From positions 1,489-65,488 of the forward strand of contig JACQST010000043.1 of the NCBI GenBank assembly GCA_016211185.1: a DNA stretch of 64,000 bases, in the 5' to 3' direction. Below, piece after piece: positions 1 to 10,664 of this stretch. Within the stretch, counting starts at the first letter, position 1. Every line of letters begins with the position of its first letter. This DNA is from Candidatus Woesearchaeota archaeon. Lineage in GTDB: Archaea > Nanobdellota > Nanobdellia > Woesearchaeales > UBA10216. Below the pieces are notes generated by a model. The model worked only from the letters and a program-made list of their open reading frames with translations. It ran no database searches and was not told the origin of the DNA. Both the position numbers and the translations under genes were made by a program.

Positions 1-1211
1 AGGTGCTGCTGCGTGTATTTTATCTGCTCTGCCTGCTGCGTGTATGCTACTTCAGCGAATATCATTCTCTGCAGGTCTGCCTCTATCTGTTTTTTATGCT
101 CTGTAAGGACTTCTGATGGGAGCTGGCTTGGCGATGCAGGCAGTATGCCGCGCAGCTGGGGCTCGTGGTGGAACATTATCTTCCACTGTTCTTCGACCGG
201 CAGGTTTTTCTCGAGATTTTGATAGAATTGAAGGGCTTTTTTTACTCTGTCCAGGGTTTCTTTTTGCTGCTTTGCCCTTTCTATTCCTCCATAGAAGCTT
301 GACATGCCCGCGTATTGGAGCCTTTGCAGGTCCACCTGCTCTATCTGGTATTGCAGTTCAGGTGTCCTTTTTGTTTTGTCAGGGTTTTCGCTGTTCCATT
401 TTTCGGTTTCTCTGACAAAGTAGTCCCATTCCCTGAGTTCCATCTTGTATCTTTCGCGGCCAGTTGCTGGATCAACTTCTGTCTCTGGTATTTTTTCGCC
501 CTTCTCATCAAACAGGTATTTGCCGCTCTCATTTGTCTTCCACACCGGGAGAGGCACGGGCTGGTCGGTTCGTATCGGTATTATCTGTCCTGTCCTGTCG
601 TCAACTATGTGGAAGACTGCTTTTTTTCGCTCCCCTTCGAGAAGGTGTGCCTCTGCGGGGTTCAGCATGAATTCAGGGTAGTTGTCGTACAGGGGCCTCT
701 GGAATTCGCCTGTGTGCACGACTATTGCTCCTCCCTGCGTAACATCTGCTGCGAAATCAACTGCCCTTTTTATCTCGTTTAGCGCCTGCTCCCTTGCCAT
801 CTCGTTGAAGCCGCCTTCTGTTAGGCCTGAGAGGTTTCCGACTCCTATTGACGCGTGGGTTGTGAGTATCACCTTGTTCCACTCTGCGAGCTCCTTTATG
901 TCTCTTCTTTCCTCCATTCCGTACATCTCTGGTGTTGTTGAGCCCTGTCCCATTGAGCCTTTTCCTCTTCCTGTGAAGCCGAGCTCGACTCTTGACGCGC
1001 CCTGCCTTATCTTTGCCTGCAGCGCTTCGAGCTGGTTCTGCATTGGAGGGGTTGGTATTCCTATCTGGCTTGGCGTGAGGCCTGAAAGCTGCGGTTCGCC
1101 GTCCATTGGCTCTATTGGCGCCATCACGTTGGCGTCATCCGATAGCGGCTGGTATCCCCTGTCCATCGCGTGGAAGTATGCGCCTTTGTAGTAGTTGTTT
1201 CCGTAGAGCAT
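1..1211 (-). CDS. Xylose-isomerase-like TIM-barrel protein (sugar phosphate isomerase/epimerase family), partial; C-terminus lies beyond the window start
   Basis: Hand translation of the minus strand gives MLYGNNYYKGAYFHAMDRGYQPLSDDANV...GASRVELGFTGRGKG...ILTTHASIG...AIVVHTGEF. This follows the AP-endonuclease-2/xylose-isomerase TIM-barrel pattern. The ORF runs off the window edge, so the track does not list it. The start is ATG at 1211 or 1166. Confidence 0.45.
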   Translation of the reverse strand, partial: MLYGNNYYKGAYFHAMDRGYQPLSDDANVMAPIEPMDGEPQLSGLTPSQIGIPTPPMQNQLEALQAKIRQGASRVELGFTGRGKGSMGQGSTTPEMYGMEERRDIKELAEWNKVILTTHASIGVGNLSGLTEGGFNEMAREQALNEIKRAVDFAADVTQGGAIVVHTGEFQRPLYDNYPEFMLNPAEAHLLEGERKKAVFHIVDDRTGQIIPIRTDQPVPLPVWKTNESGKYLFDEKGEKIPETEVDPATGRERYKMELREWDYFVRETEKWNSENPDKTKRTPELQYQIEQVDLQRLQYAGMSSFYGGIERAKQQKETLDRVKKALQFYQNLEKNLPVEEQWKIMFHHEPQLRGILPASPSQLPSEVLTEHKKQIEADLQRMIFAEVAYTQQAEQIKYTQQH

Positions 1212-1221
1212 CGTTGCACCG

Positions 1222-1812
1222 TTAGTAGACTGTTTTTTTCTTTTTGGCCTGTGTGTAGAACTCCTCTATTTTTTCTGTTTCGTGGCCCGGGGTTGCCTTT
1301 CTGTGCTCGTATGTTGCTTCTGTGCTGAATTCTGGCTTTTGGTATGTTACGCTTGTTTTTTGGGGTTGTGTGACTGTGTCATAAGGGTTTTCTGCTTGCT
1401 GCGCGTATTGTGGTGGTGTGTGGCTTGCAGTTGCCTCTTCTATTCTGGTGCCGTACTGTGCCTGTGCTTCCTGCTGCTTTGCCTGTGCTTCTTCAACAGA
1501 CTCCTCAAGAGGTTTTGCAGTCGGGGTTTCCTGCTGTGGCTGGCTGGCTGCAGTCAGGGAAACGTTTCTTTTCGCAGCCCACAGGAGCTTTGCCTCTATT
1601 GTTTCGAGCGTATCCGGGCTGGCTGCCTTCATGTGGGGAATTGGGAGCTGCTGCTTTTCCTGGTCTGAGATGGCTTCCCTTTCTGCCTCCTTCAGGAGCT
1701 TGTCTGTTTCCTCAAGCTCCTTCTTGCTCGCCTCCTCAAGCTCCTTCAGCCTCTTTATCTTTTCTGCCGGAGAAAGCTTCCTGAGTTCTTTTATTTCGTC
1801 TTCAAGCGTCAT
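1222..1812 (-). CDS. Hypothetical low-complexity/coiled-coil protein (196 aa)
   Basis: Track ORF; charged Lys/Glu-rich N- and C-termini with a Q/T/P-rich middle. It sits between two co-oriented genes with gaps of 5 and 10 nt. Confidence 0.45.
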   Translation of the reverse strand: MTLEDEIKELRKLSPAEKIKRLKELEEASKKELEETDKLLKEAEREAISDQEKQQLPIPHMKAASPDTLETIEAKLLWAAKRNVSLTAASQPQQETPTAKPLEESVEEAQAKQQEAQAQYGTRIEEATASHTPPQYAQQAENPYDTVTQPQKTSVTYQKPEFSTEATYEHRKATPGHETEKIEEFYTQAKKKKTVY

Positions 1813-1816
1813 CTGC

Positions 1817-3223
1817 TCACCATGTCAGCATGCCGTGCATCTTCTTGTAGTTTTTGTAGGTCTCATAGATGTCCTTTTTAACTGTCCCGTTTGCTTTTTT
1901 TATTTCATCAGCAATGGCTACCTTGTCCTCATGCTCTTTTTTGCCTTCCTTCTTCGGCGCCATTGACTCGAATATTTCTCCGATTCCGTCGAATACCGCC
2001 TTGAACGGCTCTATCAGGGAGGGGGCTGGCTTTTTTTCCGCTTGCCTTGGAGGCTCAAAGGTTTCTCCTCCTTCCATAAGGTAGTGCTTGAGTTCGTCGC
2101 CAAGAGCTTCCATGGATTCCTTTATTGAGTCGTTTATCATGCTCATCAGCTGCAGGTCTTCCTCTTCCCTCATCTTGATGTAGTTTTCTTCGTGGTGCTG
2201 GCTCCAGACGTATGCCCTCATTGTGAGGTCGAATTTTCCTGTGTGCATGGGTCCTCTCTGGTATCCTTCGCCGACATACTGCATGGCCGGCCTTGTCCTG
2301 AACATGAAGTGTATCAGTATGTATGGCTTGAATTTCCTGTATCCCGGGTCTTCCTTTTTGGCAAGAACCTCGACTTCTATCATTGAGCCTTCAAAGGCTG
2401 CTATCATGTCTGCTGATTCGAGTTTTTTCTGGTCGAGCTGAAGCCTTCTTATGTTCCTCAGGTATGGTTTTATCCAGCCCATGTAGAGCTTTATGGTTTC
2501 GTAGTGCTGCCTTAGGTATTTTATTATGAATTTCCTTCTCGTGCTGAGCTCGTTGTAGGTCCTTTTTTTCCATTCATAGAACTGCCTGAGCTTCCTCTTC
2601 AGGACTTCCTTGACCTTGTCGTTGAACTCAAGCCTGTCAACTTCGCTGTCGAGTTGGTCTATGTTTTTTATCCTGACCCTGAAGAACAGGTCCGGGAGTA
2701 TTGTGAATCCCACGCTTTGCGACAGCCCGTATACTGAAGCGGCGTTTTTCACTCCGCCCTCTACCTGGTCCACCCAGACTCCTTTCAGGGTTATTTCTGA
2801 GCTTTGCGCGCTGGGCCTGTCCTCGTATGAGTCTATGTAGTATTGCAGCCTTTCGTCAATTATTCTCAGTTCCCTAACTATCTGGAAGAGGGCCTTTATC
2901 ATCTCGCTTATGCCTCTGAGGTATCCTGCTGCTTTTTCCTGCTGTGACGCGAGCCTCTGTTCTGACACGCCGAAGAATGCTGACTGCTCTGAGGCGGCAA
3001 ACACGTCTGTGATTTTCGTGAAGGTTGTGTATCCCCAGTCGTACCTGAGGTGGTCTATTATCCAAAAGTATGCTGATTCTATGGGCTGGCCTGTGGACTC
3101 AACGACTATTCTGTTCCTGAAGTCAGGCTTAGGGTATCCAGTTGGTCTTTGGACATGCAAGAGGTGTTCCTCAGCGCTCTCCTGGCCAAACCCGTACCGC
3201 TTGAGCAGTTTTTCGTCAGCCAT
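1817..3223 (-). CDS. Hypothetical protein, 468 aa, no recognised domain
   Basis: Long uninterrupted ORF with plausible codon usage; it is the first gene of a three-gene co-directional cluster. Confidence 0.55.
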   Translation of the reverse strand: MADEKLLKRYGFGQESAEEHLLHVQRPTGYPKPDFRNRIVVESTGQPIESAYFWIIDHLRYDWGYTTFTKITDVFAASEQSAFFGVSEQRLASQQEKAAGYLRGISEMIKALFQIVRELRIIDERLQYYIDSYEDRPSAQSSEITLKGVWVDQVEGGVKNAASVYGLSQSVGFTILPDLFFRVRIKNIDQLDSEVDRLEFNDKVKEVLKRKLRQFYEWKKRTYNELSTRRKFIIKYLRQHYETIKLYMGWIKPYLRNIRRLQLDQKKLESADMIAAFEGSMIEVEVLAKKEDPGYRKFKPYILIHFMFRTRPAMQYVGEGYQRGPMHTGKFDLTMRAYVWSQHHEENYIKMREEEDLQLMSMINDSIKESMEALGDELKHYLMEGGETFEPPRQAEKKPAPSLIEPFKAVFDGIGEIFESMAPKKEGKKEHEDKVAIADEIKKANGTVKKDIYETYKNYKKMHGMLTW

Positions 3224-3277
3224 ATTGGTTCTCTGGGCTGTGCAGCTATTAAATCTTTTCCTTATTGCTTTTGTGCC

Positions 3278-4105
3278 TTACTGCCATCGCTTCATAACTG
3301 TTGCTACCTTGTCCGCGAGGTCTGTGGCTGTGAAGCCGTAGCCGTATTCCCTGTAAAGAAGGTCGCCTGCCATGCCTGAGATGAATGCTGATGCGCATGC
3401 AGCCATTATGAGGCTGTTTTTCTGCGCTGCAAGGCCTGCGCACAGCCCTGCAAGGACGTCCCCTGTGCCTGAGACAGTCATGCCTGCATTCCCTGTTTTG
3501 CTAAGGCGTATGCCCTCCCTGGATATCATGGTGTCTGTCCTGCCTTTTAGCAGGATAATGTTGCTGCCCGAGGCTTTCCTCGCGAGAGTTATTGATTCTT
3601 TTCCGCTTGCTTTGATGCCTGTGTTGCGCAGCAGGGTTTGGAACTCTTTGAGGTGGGGTGTTATTATTGCGTTCTCAGTATCCTTCAGCCCGATGGCTTT
3701 TATCGCGTCAGCATCTATCACTTTTGGGCACAGCGTGTTCCTGACAACTTTCCTGACAAGAGCCTGCGTCTGTTTCCTGAGCCCTATGCCGTTTCCTATG
3801 AGCAGGGAATCAAAGCCTTCGCTGAGCCTGATTAGCTTGTTGGCGTGAGCCTCTTTTAAGTAGCTGGCGTTTATTCTGACCGTCATGAAGTCCGGCCAGG
3901 CTCTTACAACGCGGGCAACGTCTCTTGGCGAAGCAATTACAACTGCGTCTGCCCCAGACCTGTACGCAGCCATGCCTGCAAGCATCACTGCGCCAGTGTA
4001 TTCAGGGCTTCCCCCGATTATCAGCACTCTCCCGTTTTGGCCTTTGTGGGAATCAGGCTTTCTTTTCGTGAGCTTTATGCTGCGCCATGTTATTAGTTCA
4101 GGCAT
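3278..4105 (-). CDS. nnrD: ADP-dependent NAD(P)H-hydrate dehydratase (YjeF C-terminal, carbohydrate-kinase-like domain)
   Basis: HKGQNGRVLIIGGSPEYTGA and the C-terminal GTGDVLAG motifs are typical of YjeF-C/Nnr2. Confidence 0.8.
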   Translation of the reverse strand: MPELITWRSIKLTKRKPDSHKGQNGRVLIIGGSPEYTGAVMLAGMAAYRSGADAVVIASPRDVARVVRAWPDFMTVRINASYLKEAHANKLIRLSEGFDSLLIGNGIGLRKQTQALVRKVVRNTLCPKVIDADAIKAIGLKDTENAIITPHLKEFQTLLRNTGIKASGKESITLARKASGSNIILLKGRTDTMISREGIRLSKTGNAGMTVSGTGDVLAGLCAGLAAQKNSLIMAACASAFISGMAGDLLYREYGYGFTATDLADKVATVMKRWQ

Positions 4106-4378: not shown

Positions 4379-4798
4379 TTAACCTATCCTGTAGTCAAGG
4401 AAGGGCATCATCTTTATCAGCGATTCCCCTGCGAAGTCCCAGAAGTATGGCGCGGCAAATATTATTGCCCCAATCATGAGGGTGTGGTGGAACTTCTCGC
4501 CTACCCTTCCAACTATGGCGGCTGCCGCACTTACTTTTAGCATTGCGATTATCGCTATGAATGCCCTGACGCCGAACTCAACATAGCCTGTCACAGCCAT
4601 CTGCTGCCCTATGAGTCCCAGTCCCCATGCAACATTCATGCTTACGAAGGTGAAGAACATGGTTGCCGGTATTGCGTGAAGGCCATGCCCAAGCCATCCC
4701 ATTCCTCTTTCATCCTGGTGGACAAAGAAAAGCTCGATTATGCCTATTGCCGCGCCCATGAAAAGCGCAGGGACTACGATTAGCTGCGTCTCAGCCAT
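4379..4798 (-). CDS. Hypothetical integral membrane protein (139 aa, about 4 TM helices)
   Basis: Hydrophobic segments throughout the track ORF. Confidence 0.5.
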   Translation of the reverse strand: MAETQLIVVPALFMGAAIGIIELFFVHQDERGMGWLGHGLHAIPATMFFTFVSMNVAWGLGLIGQQMAVTGYVEFGVRAFIAIIAMLKVSAAAAIVGRVGEKFHHTLMIGAIIFAAPYFWDFAGESLIKMMPFLDYRIG

Positions 4799-4888: not shown

Positions 4889-6163
4889 TTGAAGATGAAA
4901 GAGGCAGGCACTTCTGTCAGGGCTATAAGGGTGCTGCTTGTTCTCGCTGTTCTTCTGATTGTTGTTCCTTCTGTGCTGTCTGAGACAATCCTTGAGAGAA
5001 GCCTTAACAGGCTGGGCGTTGACAAGAACCAATTCGATGTCCAGAAGATTTATGACAATTACCAGCCTTTCCTTGACTTTGTTGCTTACGCCATACTCTT
5101 CATAGGCGTCTCCATGATGGGTCTGAAGAAGACCTTTGGGGAATCAACTGTTGTGCCTGTAGTCGTAGGCATGGTTCTTGCGGTTGCCGCTGCCTTTTAC
5201 GCTTCTACCATTAAGTTCAAGCTGGGTGATGAACTTGGTCCCACTGCCCTCCTTATAGGAGTTGGGCTCGTCGGGTTCATGGTGTTTAATGTGTTCAAGG
5301 GCATGAATGTTGACGGGTTTCATTCTGCTGCGTGGGGGATAGTTATTGCTGGGGCTTTGATAGTTCCTGTAGCCGAGAAGGCAATGGCTGGTGTCCCCCA
5401 GGATAGTCTGTTGCGCACGATTTTAGACTGGGCGTATGTTATCCTTACAATTGCAACCCTTGTCCTGATAGTGGGCTTGTTCCGCTCAGTGTTTGGAATG
5501 TGGAGGGGCTCAACGCAGGCAACACAATCCACAGCAGCAACTTCAGCAGCTTCAAATACGCCATGGCCAAGTCACACACCTATGAGTCCAATGGGCGCAA
5601 CAGGCGCTTCTGGGACTCCGCCAACAGGTACAGGGGGAGGTAGTGGTCCGACTGGCAAGCCGCCGAATTTTGATCCCTTCAAGAAGGCACATAAAAACGC
5701 TGATACGATGGCAAAGTCTATGGAGAAGCGGTTAGTTCATAACATAAACGACAAACACCTTAAAAATATAGTTACCGCTTTGTCTGCAGTTCCGGCCAGG
5801 AACACAGATGCAAGCAAAAGCGCAGAAAAAGCCATAAACGAGCTTAAAGAGATAAACAGGGATCTAGATTGGGTGAAAAAATACGTGAGTGTTATGGACG
5901 CTGCTCTCGGTTCTGCATTCAGAAGTTCAAGTTCAGGAAAAGCTTCAATAGTGGCAAAAGGCCTTCTGGAAATCAATCAACAGATAATATTCATGGATTT
6001 AGCTATATCAAAATTATCTGCTCAGTTAGGGGACATGAAAACGGCTCCCGCTGCAACAAAGGTTTCACCCACCGATACAACTATAAAAGCATGTATAGGC
6101 CATGTTAAAGTTATACTGGTTGAACTTAGCAGGATAGAAGTTCAGATCTCTGCTGGACCTTAG
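4889..6163 (+). CDS. Membrane protein with N-terminal multi-TM domain, Ser/Thr/Pro/Gly-rich linker and helical C-terminal domain (paralog 1)
   Basis: The N-terminal 200 aa align clearly with the 6930..8204 protein. Shared segments include VVPSV.S..I...SL.R.GV.K..F.V..IYD.YQPFLDFVAYAILFIG and ADSLL.V..DW.YVIL. The linker is TQSTAATSAASNTPWPSHTPMSPMGATGASGTPPTGTGGGSGPTGKPP. Confidence 0.6.
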   Translation: MKMKEAGTSVRAIRVLLVLAVLLIVVPSVLSETILERSLNRLGVDKNQFDVQKIYDNYQPFLDFVAYAILFIGVSMMGLKKTFGESTVVPVVVGMVLAVAAAFYASTIKFKLGDELGPTALLIGVGLVGFMVFNVFKGMNVDGFHSAAWGIVIAGALIVPVAEKAMAGVPQDSLLRTILDWAYVILTIATLVLIVGLFRSVFGMWRGSTQATQSTAATSAASNTPWPSHTPMSPMGATGASGTPPTGTGGGSGPTGKPPNFDPFKKAHKNADTMAKSMEKRLVHNINDKHLKNIVTALSAVPARNTDASKSAEKAINELKEINRDLDWVKKYVSVMDAALGSAFRSSSSGKASIVAKGLLEINQQIIFMDLAISKLSAQLGDMKTAPAATKVSPTDTTIKACIGHVKVILVELSRIEVQISAGP

Positions 6164-6196
6164 TTGGATGCTTTATGCCTTGGTTGGTTATGCTCT

Positions 6197-6841
6197 ATGG
6201 TCAGGATACCAAAAACACTCGATGAGATTAATGCTAACCTACTGCGGCCTTCAAATGAAAATGCGGCGAGAGATGCAAATTCGATAAAGTACAGGCTCGA
6301 GGGCATTGTAGATGAACTTAGGAATGCCAAGTCTGCTTATGAAGGTTTACCTTCTGCTGTGGATTCTCCACCTGTAAGGGATACTATCCAGTCCACAGGA
6401 AAGCTGAAACAGGTCAAAGTGGCTTTGAAGATAGCAAACTATACTGCGAAAGTTGGCTGGGTAAAATTGAGGGGCACAGAAAAAGAGAGGTTTAAAAGAG
6501 GTATAGATAAAGCCTTGCGGAATGTCAGATTCAGCCTTAACAAAGCTGCCACTAAAATGAGGGAACTGAAGGAGAAAGTTGAATCTATAAAGGGCGTATT
6601 AAATTCATTGCAAAATAGTGAAGCCAAAGTTTACATAAATTCACAAATACAAATCGTTGAACAAAAAAGTAATGCAGTTTTGTTGTTGATAACAGAATTG
6701 GCTGAAAAGGTTAACCTGTTGAATTTTGAAGACTTCGATATTACTGATTTTGATAAGGCCTTGACTGCTGCAGAAAATGCTATCTCGCCGGTAAAAGGAA
6801 TGATACATGCTTTTGCAAATATTGATAGTAAATTAAAATAA
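6197..6841 (+). CDS. Coiled-coil protein (about 215 aa); it may be the C-terminal continuation of 4889..6163, separated from it only by a single TAG
   Basis: The track ORF begins at TTG 6164, immediately after the TAG at 6161..6163 and in the same frame as the upstream gene. The first ATG is at 6197. Helical heptad-like content (KLKQVKVALKIANYTAKVGWVKL...). Confidence 0.45.
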   Translation: MVRIPKTLDEINANLLRPSNENAARDANSIKYRLEGIVDELRNAKSAYEGLPSAVDSPPVRDTIQSTGKLKQVKVALKIANYTAKVGWVKLRGTEKERFKRGIDKALRNVRFSLNKAATKMRELKEKVESIKGVLNSLQNSEAKVYINSQIQIVEQKSNAVLLLITELAEKVNLLNFEDFDITDFDKALTAAENAISPVKGMIHAFANIDSKLK

Positions 6842-6929
6842 GGTGTTAAGCATCAAGCGATATTCATATCAGATATCAGGCAAAGCTTTTTATCCTACAG
6901 GGTTTATGAGCGTTAAAAAAGGTGCTTTG

Positions 6930-8204
6930 ATGAACAAGAGGTTGCTTCAGTTAGTGCTACTTGCAACGATACTTGCGGTTATTGTTCCTTCTGTTGTTTC
7001 CCAGTCAATCATTGACAAGAGCCTTAGCCGCATAGGGGTTAGCAAGGACAAGTTTAACGTCGCAAATATTTATGACAAGTATCAGCCTTTCCTTGACTTT
7101 GTTGCATATGCTATCCTGTTCATTGGGATTGCGACGTTTGCGCTGGGGCAGCATTTCAGGGGCACTGCAACTGTGCCTGTGATGGTTGGCATTATCCTTG
7201 CGATTGCTACTGCTGTGTTTGCCAGCAAGATGAAGCCTCCGTTCATGCTTGCAGACTTGGGGCCTTTTGCCCTTATCATCGGCCTGGGCCTTATTGCCTT
7301 CATGATTTACAGTATGTTTAGGGGCATGGGCATGAATTGGCCGCACGCGGCTGCGTGGGGGCTTTTCCTTGCGGGCGCTGCCCTGCTTCCCATTGCCGAG
7401 AGGGCATTGGCAAGTGTTCCTGCGGACAGCCTTCTCCATGTGATGGCTGACTGGATGTATGTGATTCTTTTCGTTGCAGCTGTTGGCCTTATAATACAGC
7501 TTTTCCAGCTGGTTTTCGGGTTGTGGGGCGGTGGTGCTCAGCCTGCAGGTGCTGCTCCTGCCCCAGGCGCAGCTCCGCCTGCTGGACCGGCTGGGCCAAG
7601 AGCTGGTGCTGCTGCGGCTGCAGGAGGCGGTCCTCCTCCTCCGCCTGGTGGGCCTGGAGCTGGTGCAGCTGGAGCAGGTGGTGGTGCGCCGTATGCTGCT
7701 CCTAACCAGTTGCCACATGTGTTTGAGCCAGCAAGGCAGAGGCTGCAGAGTGCGCTGACTGCCATGAATGCTCATTATGAGCATGTTAGGAACTTACTTA
7801 ACACGTTGCCTGCACCGGCAATGGGTGCTGCCAGGGTTGCCGCTACTAACGGCGCCAGGGCTGTTCTGGGCGGCCCGATTAATGCTGCTGACACCGCAAT
7901 TACTACTGAGCTTAACGCCTTGACAAACCCTGCGCTGCTTAACGCTGCTTTCGTAGACCCGGGGAGGCGGGCGAGGGTTGCGACTGCTTTAGGAAACATA
8001 ATGGCGAGTTATGCTGCTGTGCAGGCCATGCGCACTCATGCTGTTACCACTTTGGGGCCGGCGGGCAGCCCGATAAATACTGCAAACGAGGCCTCGGCAA
8101 TGGGCTATGCTGCTTCTGCACGGGATAATGTTTGGAGTGCTACTGTGCAGACGGAGATGGGGACTATTGTTACACAGGTGCACGCGGCAATGGTTGGGCC
8201 TTAG
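6930..8204 (+). CDS. Membrane protein with N-terminal multi-TM domain, Ala/Gly/Pro-rich linker and Ala-rich C-terminal domain (paralog 2)
   Basis: Paralog of 4889..6163 in the TM domain. The linker is GAQPAGAAPAPGAAPPAGPAGPRAGAAAAAGGGPPPPPGGPGAGAAGAGGG. Start chosen at MNKRLLQLVLL; the track start at 6843 is also possible. Confidence 0.6.
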   Translation: MNKRLLQLVLLATILAVIVPSVVSQSIIDKSLSRIGVSKDKFNVANIYDKYQPFLDFVAYAILFIGIATFALGQHFRGTATVPVMVGIILAIATAVFASKMKPPFMLADLGPFALIIGLGLIAFMIYSMFRGMGMNWPHAAAWGLFLAGAALLPIAERALASVPADSLLHVMADWMYVILFVAAVGLIIQLFQLVFGLWGGGAQPAGAAPAPGAAPPAGPAGPRAGAAAAAGGGPPPPPGGPGAGAAGAGGGAPYAAPNQLPHVFEPARQRLQSALTAMNAHYEHVRNLLNTLPAPAMGAARVAATNGARAVLGGPINAADTAITTELNALTNPALLNAAFVDPGRRARVATALGNIMASYAAVQAMRTHAVTTLGPAGSPINTANEASAMGYAASARDNVWSATVQTEMGTIVTQVHAAMVGP

Positions 8205-8757: not shown

Positions 8758-10053
8758 TTACTTGAGCTCCTTCTTAACGAGGTCTATGCACATCCCTGCT
8801 GCAACTGTTGCGCCTGAGTCACGAACCGCGAATCTTGACATCTGTGGTATGTCCATCTGCTTCTCTATTACGAGTGGCGTTGTGGGCTTGACTTTTACTA
8901 CTGCGATGTCTCCGTTCTTTATGAAGTCTGGTTTTTCCTGCAGGGTTTCTCCTGTTGCAGGGTTTACCTTTTTCTCTATGGACAGTATCTGGCACGCCAC
9001 TTGTGCTGTGTGCACGTGGAATACTGGTGTGTAGCCTGCTGTGACGACTGTCGGGTGGTTTATGATTGCTATCTGCGCTGTGAATTCTGTGGCGAGGGTT
9101 GGTGCCTTGTCAGGGTGGCCTATTACGTCTCCTCTTGTTATGTCTTGCTTTGCTATTCCCCTTATGTTGAATCCTATGTTGTCTCCGGGCTCTGCGATGT
9201 CTATTGTCTCGTGGTGCATCTCTATGGTCTTGACTTCGCCGTGGACTCCTTTGCCTTCCCTTCCTGGCACTGCTATGACTTTGTCGCCTACCTTCATCTG
9301 GCCTGTTTCAACCCTTCCGACAGGAACAACTCCTATGCCTGTGATGTTGTAGACGTCCTGTATTGGTAGCCGTAACGGGAGGTTGATTGGCTTGTCTGGC
9401 TGCTTTAGGTTGTTTATTGCCTCTATCAGTGTAGGCCCTTTGTACCATGGCATGTTTTCTGACCTGTTCTTTACGTTTTCTCCCAGGTATGATGCCATCG
9501 CGACGAATTGTATCTCATCTGGGTTGTATCTTACTGTTTTAAGTAAAGCGCTTACCTCTGCCTTTACCTCATCGAACCTTTTCTGGTCGTACTGTACCAT
9601 ATCCATCTTGTTTATTCCGACGATGAGTTGGCCGACTCCGAGTGTTCGGGAGAGGAATATATGTTCCTTTGTCTGCGCCATTACGCCTTCTCCTCGGTTT
9701 GCTGATACTACAAGGACTGCTGCGTCTGCCTGTGACGCTCCTGTTATCATGTTCTTGATGAAGTCCCTGTGTCCTGGCGCGTCTATTATTGTGAAGTAGT
9801 ATTTGTCTGTCTCAAACCTTTTATGGGCGAGGTCTATTGTGAGCCCTCTTTCCTGCTCCTCCTTGAGGTTGTCCATTACGAATGCGAATTCGAAGCCGCT
9901 TTTCCCAAGCTCCTTTGCCTTTTCCTTGAGCTTCCTCATGGTCTGCTCATCTACGGTGCCTGAGTCATAGAGGAGCCTTCCGACTGTTGTTGATTTGCCG
10001 TGGTCTACGTGACCTATGAACACTACGTTAAGGTGTGGTTTTTGCTTAGCCAT
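8758..10053 (-). CDS. tuf: Translation elongation factor 1-alpha (aEF-1A)
   Basis: [30 protein letters not shown] and NKMD GTPase motifs. The start was refined to ATG at 10053; the track ORF carries a spurious 54-aa N-terminal extension. Confidence 0.95.
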
Positions 10054-10160
10054 TTTGTTTTTTTCCTCCTGAAATGATGGTAAATTTGTTGTTTCTGGGA
10101 TTTGGGCAGGGTATTTAAATTTTGTGGTATAGAAAAGTTTATAAATCAGTAACCTGAAGG

Positions 10161-10664
10161 GTGTGCTGTAAAGAGGTGAACAGGTTGCAAAGGAAGGGTG
10201 CGCTTGATGTATCAATCAATTCTATTGTCGTTATTGTTTTCGCGATAACAATGCTCGGGCTGGGGCTTGCCTTCATAAAGGGCAAGTTTAGTGAGATAGG
10301 CAAGACTGTTACTTTTCCTCAGCCTGAGATACCTGCATCTGCCGAAGAGCCTATCGTTTTGCCGTCTGAAGTTATGAGCGTAAACAGAGGCACAAACGCT
10401 GAGGTGAGCATTAATTTTTACAATAATCAGAATAGTGATGTTACCTCTAGTGTTATCCCTGAAATCAAGAATTGCGTGGGAACAAGCGGCAGCTCTTTTG
10501 CTCTTGGTGTGACAGCAGGCGGCCAGAATGTTCCTGTTGGCCGTAGTGTTACATATAAGGCGTTGGTGGTTATTCCTCCTGATAAGCCCTCAGGGACTTA
10601 TACTTGCACGCTCCATATAAGTGATACCACAAAGCAGTTCTTCCTGAAGGTGAGTGGAAAATAA
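10161..10664 (+). CDS. Type IV pilin-like protein with class III (prepilin-peptidase) signal peptide
   Basis: N-terminus ...NRLQRKG|[26 protein letters not shown]: a basic n-region, KG followed by a hydrophobic stretch. The C-terminus ([14 protein letters not shown]) resembles that of 11011..11574. Confidence 0.55.

What the first reader, a model, noticed from the sequence alone, without database searches (positions are those of the whole stretch)
1..3223. Three tightly linked unknown genes ending in a TIM-barrel isomerase-like protein
On the minus strand, a 468-aa protein with no recognisable domain, a 196-aa Lys/Glu-rich low-complexity protein and a xylose-isomerase-like TIM-barrel protein (continuing past the window start) are separated by only 5 and 10 nt. 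This implies one transcript. None could be assigned a function beyond the fold of the last one.
Basis: partly seen in the sequence, partly recalled or inferred. Interest (0 to 1): 0.5.

Follow-up and report, generated by a model that had tools for sequence, protein, structure and literature searches.

The report
Conserved orphan three-gene operon of Woesearchaeota
Three back-to-back genes in a tiny symbiotic archaeon (Woesearchaeota) form an operon kept throughout that lineage: a very conserved stalk-shaped protein unlike anything known, a floppy adaptor protein, and a metal enzyme whose active site looks like that of a DNA-repair nuclease; its function is unknown but can now be tested.

Summary
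On the minus strand lie A (3223-1817, 468 aa), B (1812-1222, 196 aa) and the first 403 of 651 codons of C (1211-1). The gaps are 4 nt (not 5) and 10 nt. The organism is a Woesearchaeota (DPANN) archaeon.

- **Co-conservation:** among 57 species-representative loci with enough downstream DNA, 53 keep C and 47 keep B next to A. Two gene orders occur, A-B-C and A-C-B. A and C distances co-vary beyond a neighbour-gene control.
- **A:** it has no match in Pfam, NCBIfam, PHROGs, PADLOC, PDB sequences or PDB folds. It has about 2,200 homologues at roughly 50% identity. The model shows an alpha/beta base and a long, highly conserved coiled-coil stalk with one strongly basic helix.
- **B:** a conserved N-terminal helix followed by a disordered tail with isolated conserved tyrosines.
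- **C:** a genuine xylose-isomerase-like TIM barrel split by a ~270-aa insertion. MJ1311 is the closest structure. All nine endonuclease-IV metal-ligand positions are invariant, so "sugar isomerase" is probably too narrow a label.

Best reading, at low-to-moderate confidence: one lineage-specific complex built around a multinuclear metallo-phosphoesterase. Function is unproven. Interest is moderate.

The parts
3246..3263 (-). Putative archaeal promoter of the operon. It has a purine-rich BRE-like stretch (3263-3254, AAGGAAAAGA) and a TATA-like box (3253-3246, TTTAATAG), about 27 nt upstream of the A start codon. That spacing implies a leaderless or near-leaderless mRNA.
   Evidence: Read directly. 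The same AGAAAAA..TTTAATA / CTTATATA arrangement lies 25-45 nt upstream of A in relatives L002, L004, L007-L009, L014, L016, L018 and L029. The promoter function is inferred, not shown.
1817..3223 (-). Gene A: a 468-aa orphan protein. The model shows an alpha/beta base, a long antiparallel coiled-coil stalk (helices ~84-134 and ~202-267, the second with 21 K/R against 6 D/E), a conserved helical tip (135-201), a disordered linker (385-432) and a C-terminal basic/aromatic helix ending ...HGMLTW.
   Evidence: - ORF.
- Homologues: 2,177, the top 120 at 48% identity or more, none with a Pfam domain. There are 532 clusters at 50% identity in 1.84 billion proteins.
- Conservation: 80+ invariant columns. 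The stalk and tip are the most conserved parts.
- Model: AF2 pLDDT 73.6, pTM 0.50.
- Searches with no hit: Pfam, NCBIfam, PHROGs, PADLOC, PDB sequence and PDB fold.
- Charge distribution.
1817..1821 (-). GGTGA Shine-Dalgarno-like motif for B. It overlaps the TGA stop of A and lies 4 nt before the B ATG.
   Evidence: Read. Its function is inferred.
1222..1812 (-). Gene B: a 196-aa protein. It has a conserved K/E-rich N-terminal helix (~10-46, motif L-x-P-x-E-R-I-x-x-L-K-E-L-E), a second short conserved patch (57-73), and a fast-evolving Q/T/P/A-rich disordered tail carrying isolated near-invariant tyrosines (Y120, Y144, Y168, Y186).
   Evidence: - ORF.
- A single-sequence search finds only 12 close relatives.
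- An HMM built here finds a B homologue on the same strand in 64 ORFs of the related loci, either between A and C or just after C.
- Conservation profile.
1217..1220 (-). GGTG Shine-Dalgarno-like motif for C, 5 nt before the C ATG.
   Evidence: Read. Its function is inferred.
1..1211 (-). Gene C, first 403 of 651 codons. It is a xylose-isomerase-like TIM barrel split by a ~270-aa insertion. The window holds the N-terminal tail, strands beta1-beta4 (ligands H119, H166, E169) and most of the insertion. Strands beta5-beta8 and the conserved C-terminal tail lie beyond the window start.
   Evidence: - Translation.
- Full length P0121.
- Pfam: 57.4 bits against a cut-off of 31.1, in two stretches 72-173 and 484-588.
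- AF2 model: pLDDT 80, pTM 0.76. Barrel plus beta-hairpins (199-260) plus helical bundle (262-433).
- Invariant residues H119 H166 E444 D496 H499 H543 D552 H554 E583 align with the Endo IV ligands.

Best explanation
A, B and C form one vertically inherited, chromosomal operon specific to Woesearchaeota and related Nanoarchaeota. I propose that it encodes a single heteromeric module.

**C is the catalytic subunit.** It is a TIM-barrel metalloenzyme of the MJ1311 / endonuclease-IV type. It keeps all nine residues that hold the trinuclear metal centre of endonuclease IV. A ~270-aa beta-hairpin and helical-bundle insertion sits in the beta4-alpha4 loop, on the catalytic face of the barrel.

**A is a non-enzymatic partner.** It has a globular base and a long, unusually conserved coiled-coil stalk. 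One stalk helix is strongly basic.

**B is a disordered adaptor.** It has a conserved N-terminal helix and tyrosine-centred short motifs.

**Proposed mechanism.** C hydrolyses a phosphoester bond in a polyanionic substrate, with nucleic acid the leading candidate. A and B recruit, position or gate that substrate.

**What is shown.** The gene structure; co-conservation in two gene orders; co-variation of A and C; the fold of C and the invariance of its ligands; and the absence of any known relative for A.

**What is inferred.** Co-transcription, physical complex formation, a trinuclear metal site, phosphoesterase chemistry and the substrate class.
For: **Linkage**
- C lies downstream of A in 53 of 57 loci, B is present in 47 of 57, and both are present in 44 of 57. 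The orders are A-B-C (32 loci) and A-C-B (12 loci).
- The trio is also seen in a complete 1.02-Mb genome and in a 250-kb contig.
- Linkage to a 638-aa AP_endonuc_2 protein persists for an A homologue of only 34% identity.

**Co-evolution**
- Pairwise distance matrices give r(A,C)=0.90, against r(A,NNR)=0.67 and r(C,NNR)=0.61.
- Partial r(A,C|NNR)=0.83, with a partial Mantel p of 0.001.

**Operon signals**
- Spacers of 4 and 10 nt, a conserved BRE/TATA element before A, and GGTG(A) before B and C.

**C as an active multinuclear enzyme**
- H119, H166, E444, D496, H499, H543, D552, H554 and E583 are invariant in 40 diverse sequences.
- Each lies at the C-terminal end of a successive barrel strand in the model.
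- Eight of the nine are paired with E. coli Nfo H69, H109, D179, H182, H216, D229, H231 and E261 by hhalign. E444 is matched to E145 only by the shared [IP]EN motif.
- Those nine Nfo residues are the catalytic metal ligands (PMC2770678; equivalent residues in PMC13113976).
- MJ1311, the best sequence and fold match, was listed as the predicted Endo IV homologue of M. jannaschii (PMC2770678).

**Signs of partner binding**
- Segments that are strongly conserved yet modelled with low confidence occur in A (76-88, 318-324) and in C (tail 586-651).
- The stalk of A has 35 invariant residues out of 112, far more than a free coiled coil needs.
- Stalk helix 2 has a pI of 10.5.
Against: - No direct evidence of a complex exists. 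No multimer model could be run.
- C does not match curated Nfo models, and the hhalign probabilities against Nfo are very low.
- From my recollection of the MJ1311 structure paper (not held in the library), MJ1311 keeps the nine ligands but lacks a DNA-binding groove. Its activity is unknown.
- C is acidic overall, with a pI of 5.8.
- A few genomes have A and B without C within 6 kb (L033, L078, L079). One divergent A (31% identity) has no C within 8 kb.
- The co-evolution control rests on a single neighbouring gene.
- The model of A is only of moderate confidence (pTM 0.50).
Confidence: 0.4

Rival explanations
1. C is what its database label says: a sugar or sugar-phosphate epimerase/isomerase with one or two metals. 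A and B would be structural or regulatory partners in carbohydrate or cell-envelope precursor metabolism.
For: - NCBI and IMG name C 'sugar phosphate isomerase/epimerase'.
- The only NCBIfam hit is fructoselysine 3-epimerase.
- The E-D-H-E ligand quartet of those enzymes is a subset of C's invariant residues.
- Phosphoglucomutase and a sugar-nucleotidyltransferase lie a few kb downstream in L002 and L004.
Against: - The NCBIfam hit scores 21 bits against a cut-off of 305.
- Four further invariant residues (H119, H166, D552, H554) match the extra Endo IV metal sites. A mononuclear epimerase does not need them.
- This reading gives no reason for an enzyme of central sugar metabolism to co-evolve with an orphan coiled-coil protein.
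Confidence: 0.2
2. A is the main player. It would be a self-assembling structural, cytoskeletal or membrane-associated scaffold of Woesearchaeota, with B as its assembly adaptor and C as an enzyme docked onto it.
For: - A is the most conserved of the three. Its mean distance is 0.72, against 0.81 for the housekeeping NNR and 1.05 for C.
- It has the extreme conservation along the coiled coil that is typical of filament or lattice formers.
- The only fold matches are coiled-coil assemblies: syntaxin, BAR domains, SMC/MukB arms, dynein stalk and ESCRT-III.
- A and B persist without C in three loci.
Against: - A has no transmembrane segment or signal peptide. The maximum 19-residue hydropathy is 1.0.
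- The C-terminal helix is not amphipathic, with a hydrophobic moment below 0.5.
- No nucleotide-binding motif is present.
Confidence: 0.15
3. The three genes are only neighbours in a slowly rearranging small genome and have no shared function.
For: Other neighbours are also syntenic. NNR lies upstream in about 50 of 85 loci, and LysRS lies downstream in L002 and L004.
Against: - Linkage survives a change of gene order (A-B-C against A-C-B) and insertions of unrelated genes.
- The A-C distance correlation far exceeds the A-NNR and C-NNR correlations.
- The 4- and 10-nt spacers with Shine-Dalgarno-like motifs indicate translational coupling.
Confidence: 0.07
4. The cluster is a mobile-element, viral or anti-viral defence module.
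For: An orphan protein next to a nuclease-like enzyme is a common theme in defence islands.
Against: - PADLOC and PHROGs give no hit for A or C. B has only a chance-level Cas8g match at E=0.025.
- There are no relatives in 50,697 phage records or in IMG/VR.
- The cluster sits in a fixed chromosomal position among housekeeping genes, is seen once per locus held, and occurs in 368 species-representative genomes.
- A is conserved to a degree comparable with lineage marker genes (47.4% median identity in bioRxiv 10.64898/2026.05.13.725050).
Confidence: 0.02

Closest known systems
MJ1311 of Methanocaldococcus jannaschii (PDB 3wqo, 'D-tagatose 3-epimerase-like protein', function unknown)
   Different: - Identity is only 19%.
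- MJ1311 is a compact 293-aa barrel. C carries a ~270-aa insertion between beta4 and beta5, plus conserved N- and C-terminal tails.
- No evidence was gathered here on whether MJ1311 has A- or B-like partner genes.
- MJ1311's own activity is unknown.
Endonuclease IV (Nfo; PDB 1qtw, 3aam), a trinuclear-metal AP endonuclease
   Different: - C does not hit curated Nfo models.
- Overall sequence similarity is not significant.
- The DNA-recognition loops could not be assessed.
- The insertion and the A and B partners have no Nfo counterpart.
Ketose 3-epimerases (D-tagatose / D-allulose 3-epimerase; PDB 7dz2, 8xiv, 5zfs)
   Different: - From general knowledge, these enzymes are mononuclear and lack the additional His/His and Asp/His sites that are invariant in C.
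- The only curated epimerase model hit is far below threshold.
DUF692 enzymes with obligate partners (MbnB-MbnC, TglH-TglI)
   Different: - The structural similarity is lower than for MJ1311 or Endo IV.
- There is no Pfam DUF692 hit.
- B is not a Cys-containing peptide substrate.
- A is unrelated to C. Its relation to MbnC or TglI was not tested.

Membership tests
Xylose isomerase-like TIM barrel (Pfam PF01261, AP_endonuc_2) - protein C | Pfam score above the gathering threshold | tested here: met
   The full-length P0121 scores 57.4 bits against a cut-off of 31.1. The window fragment alone scores 25.4, below threshold.
Xylose isomerase-like TIM barrel (Pfam PF01261, AP_endonuc_2) - protein C | (beta/alpha)8 fold superposable on solved members | tested here: met
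Xylose isomerase-like TIM barrel (Pfam PF01261, AP_endonuc_2) - protein C | Single contiguous barrel domain of ~250-300 aa | tested here: not met
   The Pfam match is split into residues 72-173 and 484-588. About 270 inserted residues (176-435) form beta-hairpins and a helical bundle, and this is present in all 40 aligned homologues. C is therefore a variant architecture.
Endonuclease IV (Nfo) | Nine conserved metal-ligand residues (E. coli H69, H109, E145, D179, H182, H216, D229, H231, E261) | tested here: met
   The counterparts in C are H119, H166, E444, D496, H499, H543, D552, H554 and E583, all invariant. Eight are aligned by hhalign, and E444/E145 is matched by the xEN motif only. The ligand list comes from PMC2770678 and PMC13113976. 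This is a sequence-level test only; metal content is not known.
Endonuclease IV (Nfo) | Match to curated Nfo family models / significant overall sequence similarity | tested here: not met
   NCBIfam gives no Nfo hit for the window fragment or for full-length C. The hhalign probability against E. coli Nfo is below 1%. phmmer of C against the PDB finds MJ1311 and no Endo IV.
Endonuclease IV (Nfo) | DNA-recognition loops and AP-endonuclease activity | not testable with these tools
   This needs a structure-based comparison of the loops with coordinates, and enzyme assays.
Ketose/sugar-phosphate 3-epimerases | Match to a curated epimerase model | tested here: not met
   The best NCBIfam hit is fructoselysine 3-epimerase at 21.3 bits, against a cut-off of 305.
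Ketose/sugar-phosphate 3-epimerases | E-D-H-E metal quartet on the barrel | tested here: inconclusive
   The residues are present (E444, D496, H543, E583), but they are a subset of the Endo IV set, so the feature does not discriminate.
Any described protein family - protein A | Significant sequence or fold match to a curated family or a solved structure | tested here: not met
   - Pfam: none for A, for 40 homologues or for 10 distant homologues.
- NCBIfam: none.
- PHROGs and PADLOC: none below E=0.07.
- PDB sequences: none at E up to 10, for the single sequence and for the profile.
- Foldseek against the PDB: no hit at E of 1e-3 or below.
- AFDB could not be searched.
Operon (co-transcribed functional unit) | Same strand, minimal spacers, and linkage conserved across divergent genomes | tested here: met
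   The spacers are 4 and 10 nt. Linkage is kept in 44-53 of 57 loci and in two gene orders. The transcript itself was not observed.
Anti-phage defence system / mobile element | Match to known defence or viral protein families, with a patchy mobile distribution | tested here: not met
   PADLOC and PHROGs are negative. There are no relatives in phage records or IMG/VR. The cluster is core-like, with a fixed chromosomal context.

The most novel reading that the evidence does not exclude
A, B and C constitute a previously unrecognised, lineage-defining molecular machine of Woesearchaeales. A would represent a new protein fold family, as conserved as universal marker genes. It would work with an Endo-IV-like trinuclear metallo-nuclease that has acquired a 270-aa lid and stalk. 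One possible role is a DPANN-specific nucleic-acid processing, repair or salvage complex that stands in for pathways these reduced genomes lack.
Probability: 0.3. Interest if true: 0.75.

Novelty: new variant of a known kind. Interest (0 to 1): 0.55.

Why it matters
Woesearchaeota are abundant, uncultured archaea with ~1-Mb genomes, and they are thought to live as symbionts. Genes they all keep are likely to be essential to that lifestyle.

Protein A is as conserved as core housekeeping markers, yet it has no detectable relative in any family or structure library. It is always tied to an enzyme whose active site resembles a DNA-repair nuclease rather than the "sugar isomerase" label it carries.

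This work turns three "hypothetical proteins" into a defined, testable three-component module. It corrects a probable mis-annotation that is propagated across hundreds of genomes. It also singles out a strong candidate for structural and biochemical study of DPANN-specific biology.

Tried and rejected
- **Extending the window.** The exact-protein look-up gave only a 4.2-kb Logan contig that also truncates C. The full C sequence was recovered instead as protein P0121.
- **Known-family searches for A and B.** Pfam, NCBIfam, PHROGs and PADLOC gave nothing. The only marginal items (Cas8g for B at E=0.025; Med11 in 4 of 40 A homologues) are chance-level coiled-coil or low-complexity matches.
- **AFDB Foldseek search.** It was unavailable.
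- **A and C sharing a domain.** Rejected; hhalign probability is 0.4%.
- **Membrane binding by the C-terminal helix of A.** Not supported, because the hydrophobic moment is low.
- **Viral or mobile origin.** Rejected.
- **Global hhalign of the C barrel against Nfo.** It failed. Local mode was needed.
- **Canonical nfo.** None was found in the window or the held loci. This says nothing about whole genomes.
- **Literature.** No paper was found describing this cluster or family. The MJ1311 structure paper is not held, so what I say about it rests on my recollection.
- **IMG label.** The annotation of one distant A homologue as a "MerR regulator" is not supported by Pfam.
Full report
**1. What is in the sequence**

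Positions 1-3223 carry three minus-strand genes.
- A: 3223-1817, 468 aa.
- B: 1812-1222, 196 aa.
- C: starts at 1211 and runs past the window start, with 403 codons present.

Reading the junctions directly gives TGA-GCAG-ATG (4 nt) between A and B. Between B and C it gives TAA-CGGTGCAACG-ATG (10 nt).

The gene upstream (4105-3278) is an NAD(P)H-hydrate dehydratase (Pfam Carb_kinase 1.5e-46, TIGR00196 1.9e-68). It is separated from A by 54 nt.

The window comes from a Candidatus Woesearchaeota MAG (NCBI locus tags HY640_02635 and HY640_02630, contig 65,765 bp). Archaeal EF-1alpha and ribosomal protein S10 lie 5-7 kb away. No tRNA or Rfam RNA is present in the window.

**2. Operon signals**

In the 54-nt spacer before A lies AAGGAAAAGA-TTTAATAG (3263-3246). 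This is a purine-rich BRE-like stretch followed by a TATA-like box, centred about 27 nt before the ATG. The same arrangement (ATAGAAAAA..TTTAATA or ..CTTATATA) lies 25-45 nt upstream of A in many relatives. This suggests that A starts a leaderless or short-leader transcript separate from the dehydratase gene.

B and C are each preceded by GGTGA or GGTG, 4-5 nt from their ATG. That is what internal cistrons of archaeal operons usually carry. No terminator-like hairpin lies on the minus strand. Co-transcription is thus well supported, but it remains inferred.

**3. Are the three genes co-conserved?**

Yes.
- A has 2,177 homologues at E of 1e-3 or below. The best 120 are all 466-585 aa, at least 48% identical, without Pfam domains, and labelled Woesearchaeota where a name exists.
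- An exhaustive HMMER scan of 1.84 billion cluster representatives finds 532 clusters, 209 of them below 1e-30 and reaching down to about 30% identity. The family is therefore large but restricted to one lineage.
- In GTDB species representatives, 368 genomes encode A. The best 80 loci are nearly all Woesearchaeota, Nanoarchaeota or Nanoarchaeia. Some titles are evidently wrong ("uncultured Methanosarcinales", one "Aminicenantes" bin).

I searched those loci with tblastn for C and with an HMM I built for the N-terminal domain of B. Among the 57 non-redundant loci with at least 3.5 kb downstream of A:
- 53 have C downstream.
- 47 have B on the same strand.
- 44 have both.
- 32 are in the order A-B-C and 12 in the order A-C-B.
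- 3 have A and B without C.
- Only 1 has neither.

The same trio is called as genes in a complete 1.02-Mb circular genome and in a 250-kb contig. An A homologue of only 34% identity still has a 638-aa AP_endonuc_2 protein 1.7 kb downstream. One homologue at 31% identity does not.

Linkage that survives a change of gene order and the insertion of unrelated genes is not mere synteny.

As a further test I compared pairwise evolutionary distances in 32 loci that carry full-length A, C and the neighbouring dehydratase (NNR).
- r(A,C)=0.90, r(A,NNR)=0.67 and r(C,NNR)=0.61.
- Partial r(A,C|NNR)=0.83, with a partial Mantel p of 0.001.
- One control gene is a thin proxy for the species tree, so this is supportive rather than decisive.

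**4. Protein A**

No library recognises it.
- Pfam finds nothing for A itself, for 40 homologues, or for the 10 most distant homologues.
- NCBIfam, PHROGs and PADLOC find nothing.
- PDB sequences give nothing, by single sequence or by profile, even at E=10.

The 40-sequence alignment has over 80 invariant columns.

The AlphaFold2 model (pLDDT 73.6, pTM 0.50) shows:
- An N-terminal beta-beta-beta-alpha-beta unit that, together with strands 281-341 and helices 342-384, probably forms an alpha/beta base.
- Two very long helices (84-134 and 202-267) that form an antiparallel stalk.
- A small helical tip (135-201).
- A disordered linker (385-432).
- A C-terminal helix ending in the conserved ...YKNYKKxHGMLTW.

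Three features stand out.
- The stalk and tip are the most conserved parts, with 35 invariant residues among the 112 of the two stalk helices. This is unlike ordinary coiled coils.
- Stalk helix 2 has 21 K/R against 6 D/E, giving a pI of 10.5.
- Several near-invariant segments (76-88 FAASEQSAFFGVS; 318-324 EGYQRGP) are modelled with pLDDT below 50. This is typical of surfaces that become ordered only in a complex.

A has no transmembrane segment. Its C-terminal helix is not amphipathic. It has no viral relatives.

**5. Protein B**

B evolves fast. A single-sequence search of 5.8 billion proteins finds only 12 relatives, all from the closest genomes. The HMM nevertheless recovers it in 64 ORFs.

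The conserved elements are:
- A K/E-rich helix, with L13, P15, R18, I19 and L22 at or above 82%, and E32, L39 and E46 at 87-90%.
- A short patch containing P59 and L69.
- An LEE motif at 102-104.
- Single tyrosines in an otherwise variable Q/T/P/A-rich tail: Y120 at 98%, Y144 at 93%, Y168 at 84% and Y186 at 75%.

That pattern fits a disordered adaptor with short linear motifs.

**6. Protein C**

The full protein (P0121, 651 aa) passes the Pfam threshold for the xylose-isomerase-like TIM barrel in two stretches, 72-173 and 484-588.

The AF2 model (pLDDT 80, pTM 0.76) is a barrel. Its beta4-alpha4 loop carries beta-hairpins (199-260) and a helical bundle (262-433). All 40 aligned homologues (563-706 aa) have this insertion.

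The fold alone therefore does not decide the chemistry, but the residues say more. H119, H166, E444, D496, H499, H543, D552, H554 and E583 are invariant. Each lies at the C-terminal end of a successive strand. hhalign pairs eight of them with E. coli Nfo H69, H109, D179, H182, H216, D229, H231 and E261. E444 (APEN) corresponds to E145 (IEN) by motif only (the Nfo sequence was verified against 1qtw).

These nine residues are exactly the catalytic metal ligands of endonuclease IV (PMC2770678). The equivalent set H75, H115, E153, D187, H190, H224, D237, H239 and E269 is described for the Chlamydophila enzyme in PMC13113976. PMC2770678 also lists MJ1311 as the predicted Endo IV homologue of M. jannaschii.

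From my own recollection of the MJ1311 structure paper (not held), its authors noted the same nine-residue conservation but found no DNA-binding groove.

C is not a canonical Nfo, because no curated Nfo model matches it. I therefore file C as a new architectural variant of the MJ1311-like branch of this superfamily. It probably has a multinuclear metal site. The database name "sugar phosphate isomerase/epimerase" is best treated as unproven.

The N-terminal ~45 residues of C are poorly conserved and modelled at low confidence. The last ~65 residues are conserved yet also modelled at low confidence, which again suggests a partner-binding segment.

**7. Interpretation**

The simplest model consistent with all of this is one heteromeric module.
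- C supplies the catalysis. The most probable chemistry is phosphoester hydrolysis at a trinuclear centre.
- A supplies a conserved stalk with a polyanion-binding face.
- B links or regulates the other two.

I put the operon or functional-module claim at about 0.8. I put "C is an active multinuclear metalloenzyme" at about 0.65. A nucleic-acid substrate is only about 0.3. The combined statement stands at 0.4.

The rivals are a sugar-metabolic enzyme with accessory proteins, an A-centred structural scaffold, neighbours with no shared function, and a mobile or defence element. The last two are disfavoured.

**8. Novelty and verdict**

No paper describing this cluster was found. C is a new variant of a known superfamily. 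A and B have no detectable relatives outside their own lineage.

It is moderately interesting: it is a well-defined, highly conserved piece of DPANN "dark matter" that can now be tested, but its function is still not established.

Noticed in passing
window 4889-6163 (+) and 6843-8204 (+), with 6164-6841 (+) between them: Two paralogous membrane proteins (424 and 453 aa) are 50% identical over their first ~204 residues, which hold a signal-like segment and several hydrophobic helices. Their C-terminal halves are unrelated. The first has a weak TrbC/VirB2-pilin hit (18.4 bits, below threshold). A 225-aa coiled-coil-like ORF lies between them. The second carries an Ala/Gly/Pro-rich low-complexity stretch, where GC rises to 0.61 (7501-8000).
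   Followed up: partly
window 4379-4798 (-): A 139-aa hydrophobic protein without a Pfam hit lies next to the NAD(P)HX dehydratase gene. Genes of 142 and 140 aa, also without Pfam hits, occupy a similar position upstream of that gene in L002 and L004, so it may be a conserved neighbour.
   Followed up: no
window 3278-4105 (-); related loci L002-L085: The NAD(P)H-hydrate dehydratase gene lies upstream of A on the same strand in about 50 of 85 loci. It is either directly adjacent (35-154 nt) or separated by a Na+/H+ exchanger-TrkA_N gene or by 3-5 kb. Its distances correlate with those of A and C much less than A and C correlate with each other.
   Followed up: partly
loci L034, L037, L041, L044-L046, L051, L055-L057, L063, L065, L070, L081: In these loci the gene order is A-C-B instead of A-B-C. 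The B homologues there are shorter (143-185 aa), and many end in ...LYKLKKETGL.
   Followed up: partly
loci L024, L025, L027, L030, L035: Here C starts 5-17 nt after A, and no B homologue is detectable in the held DNA. Where the sequence was examined (P0076, on the same contig as L025), A carries an extra ~40-residue N-terminal segment (e.g. ...FAGKTLKEMEKLVAKMSDAEVDKY...). Whether that segment replaces B was not tested.
   Followed up: no
proteins P0075 and P0087 (A homologues): Some A homologues have long His/Gly-rich N-terminal extensions (e.g. GDGHGGDDHGGGGHGGGWGH...). These may bind metal.
   Followed up: no
loci L009, L011, L014, L019 and others; L049: Many public MAG records that carry this Woesearchaeota-type cluster are titled "uncultured Methanosarcinales archaeon", and one is titled "Candidatus Aminicenantes bacterium". 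These are probably placeholder or mis-binned labels.
   Followed up: no
window 8758-10215 (-): The mechanical ORF for archaeal EF-1alpha begins at a TTG about 54 codons upstream of the likely true start (MAKQKPHLN...). The N-terminal extension is probably not translated.
   Followed up: no
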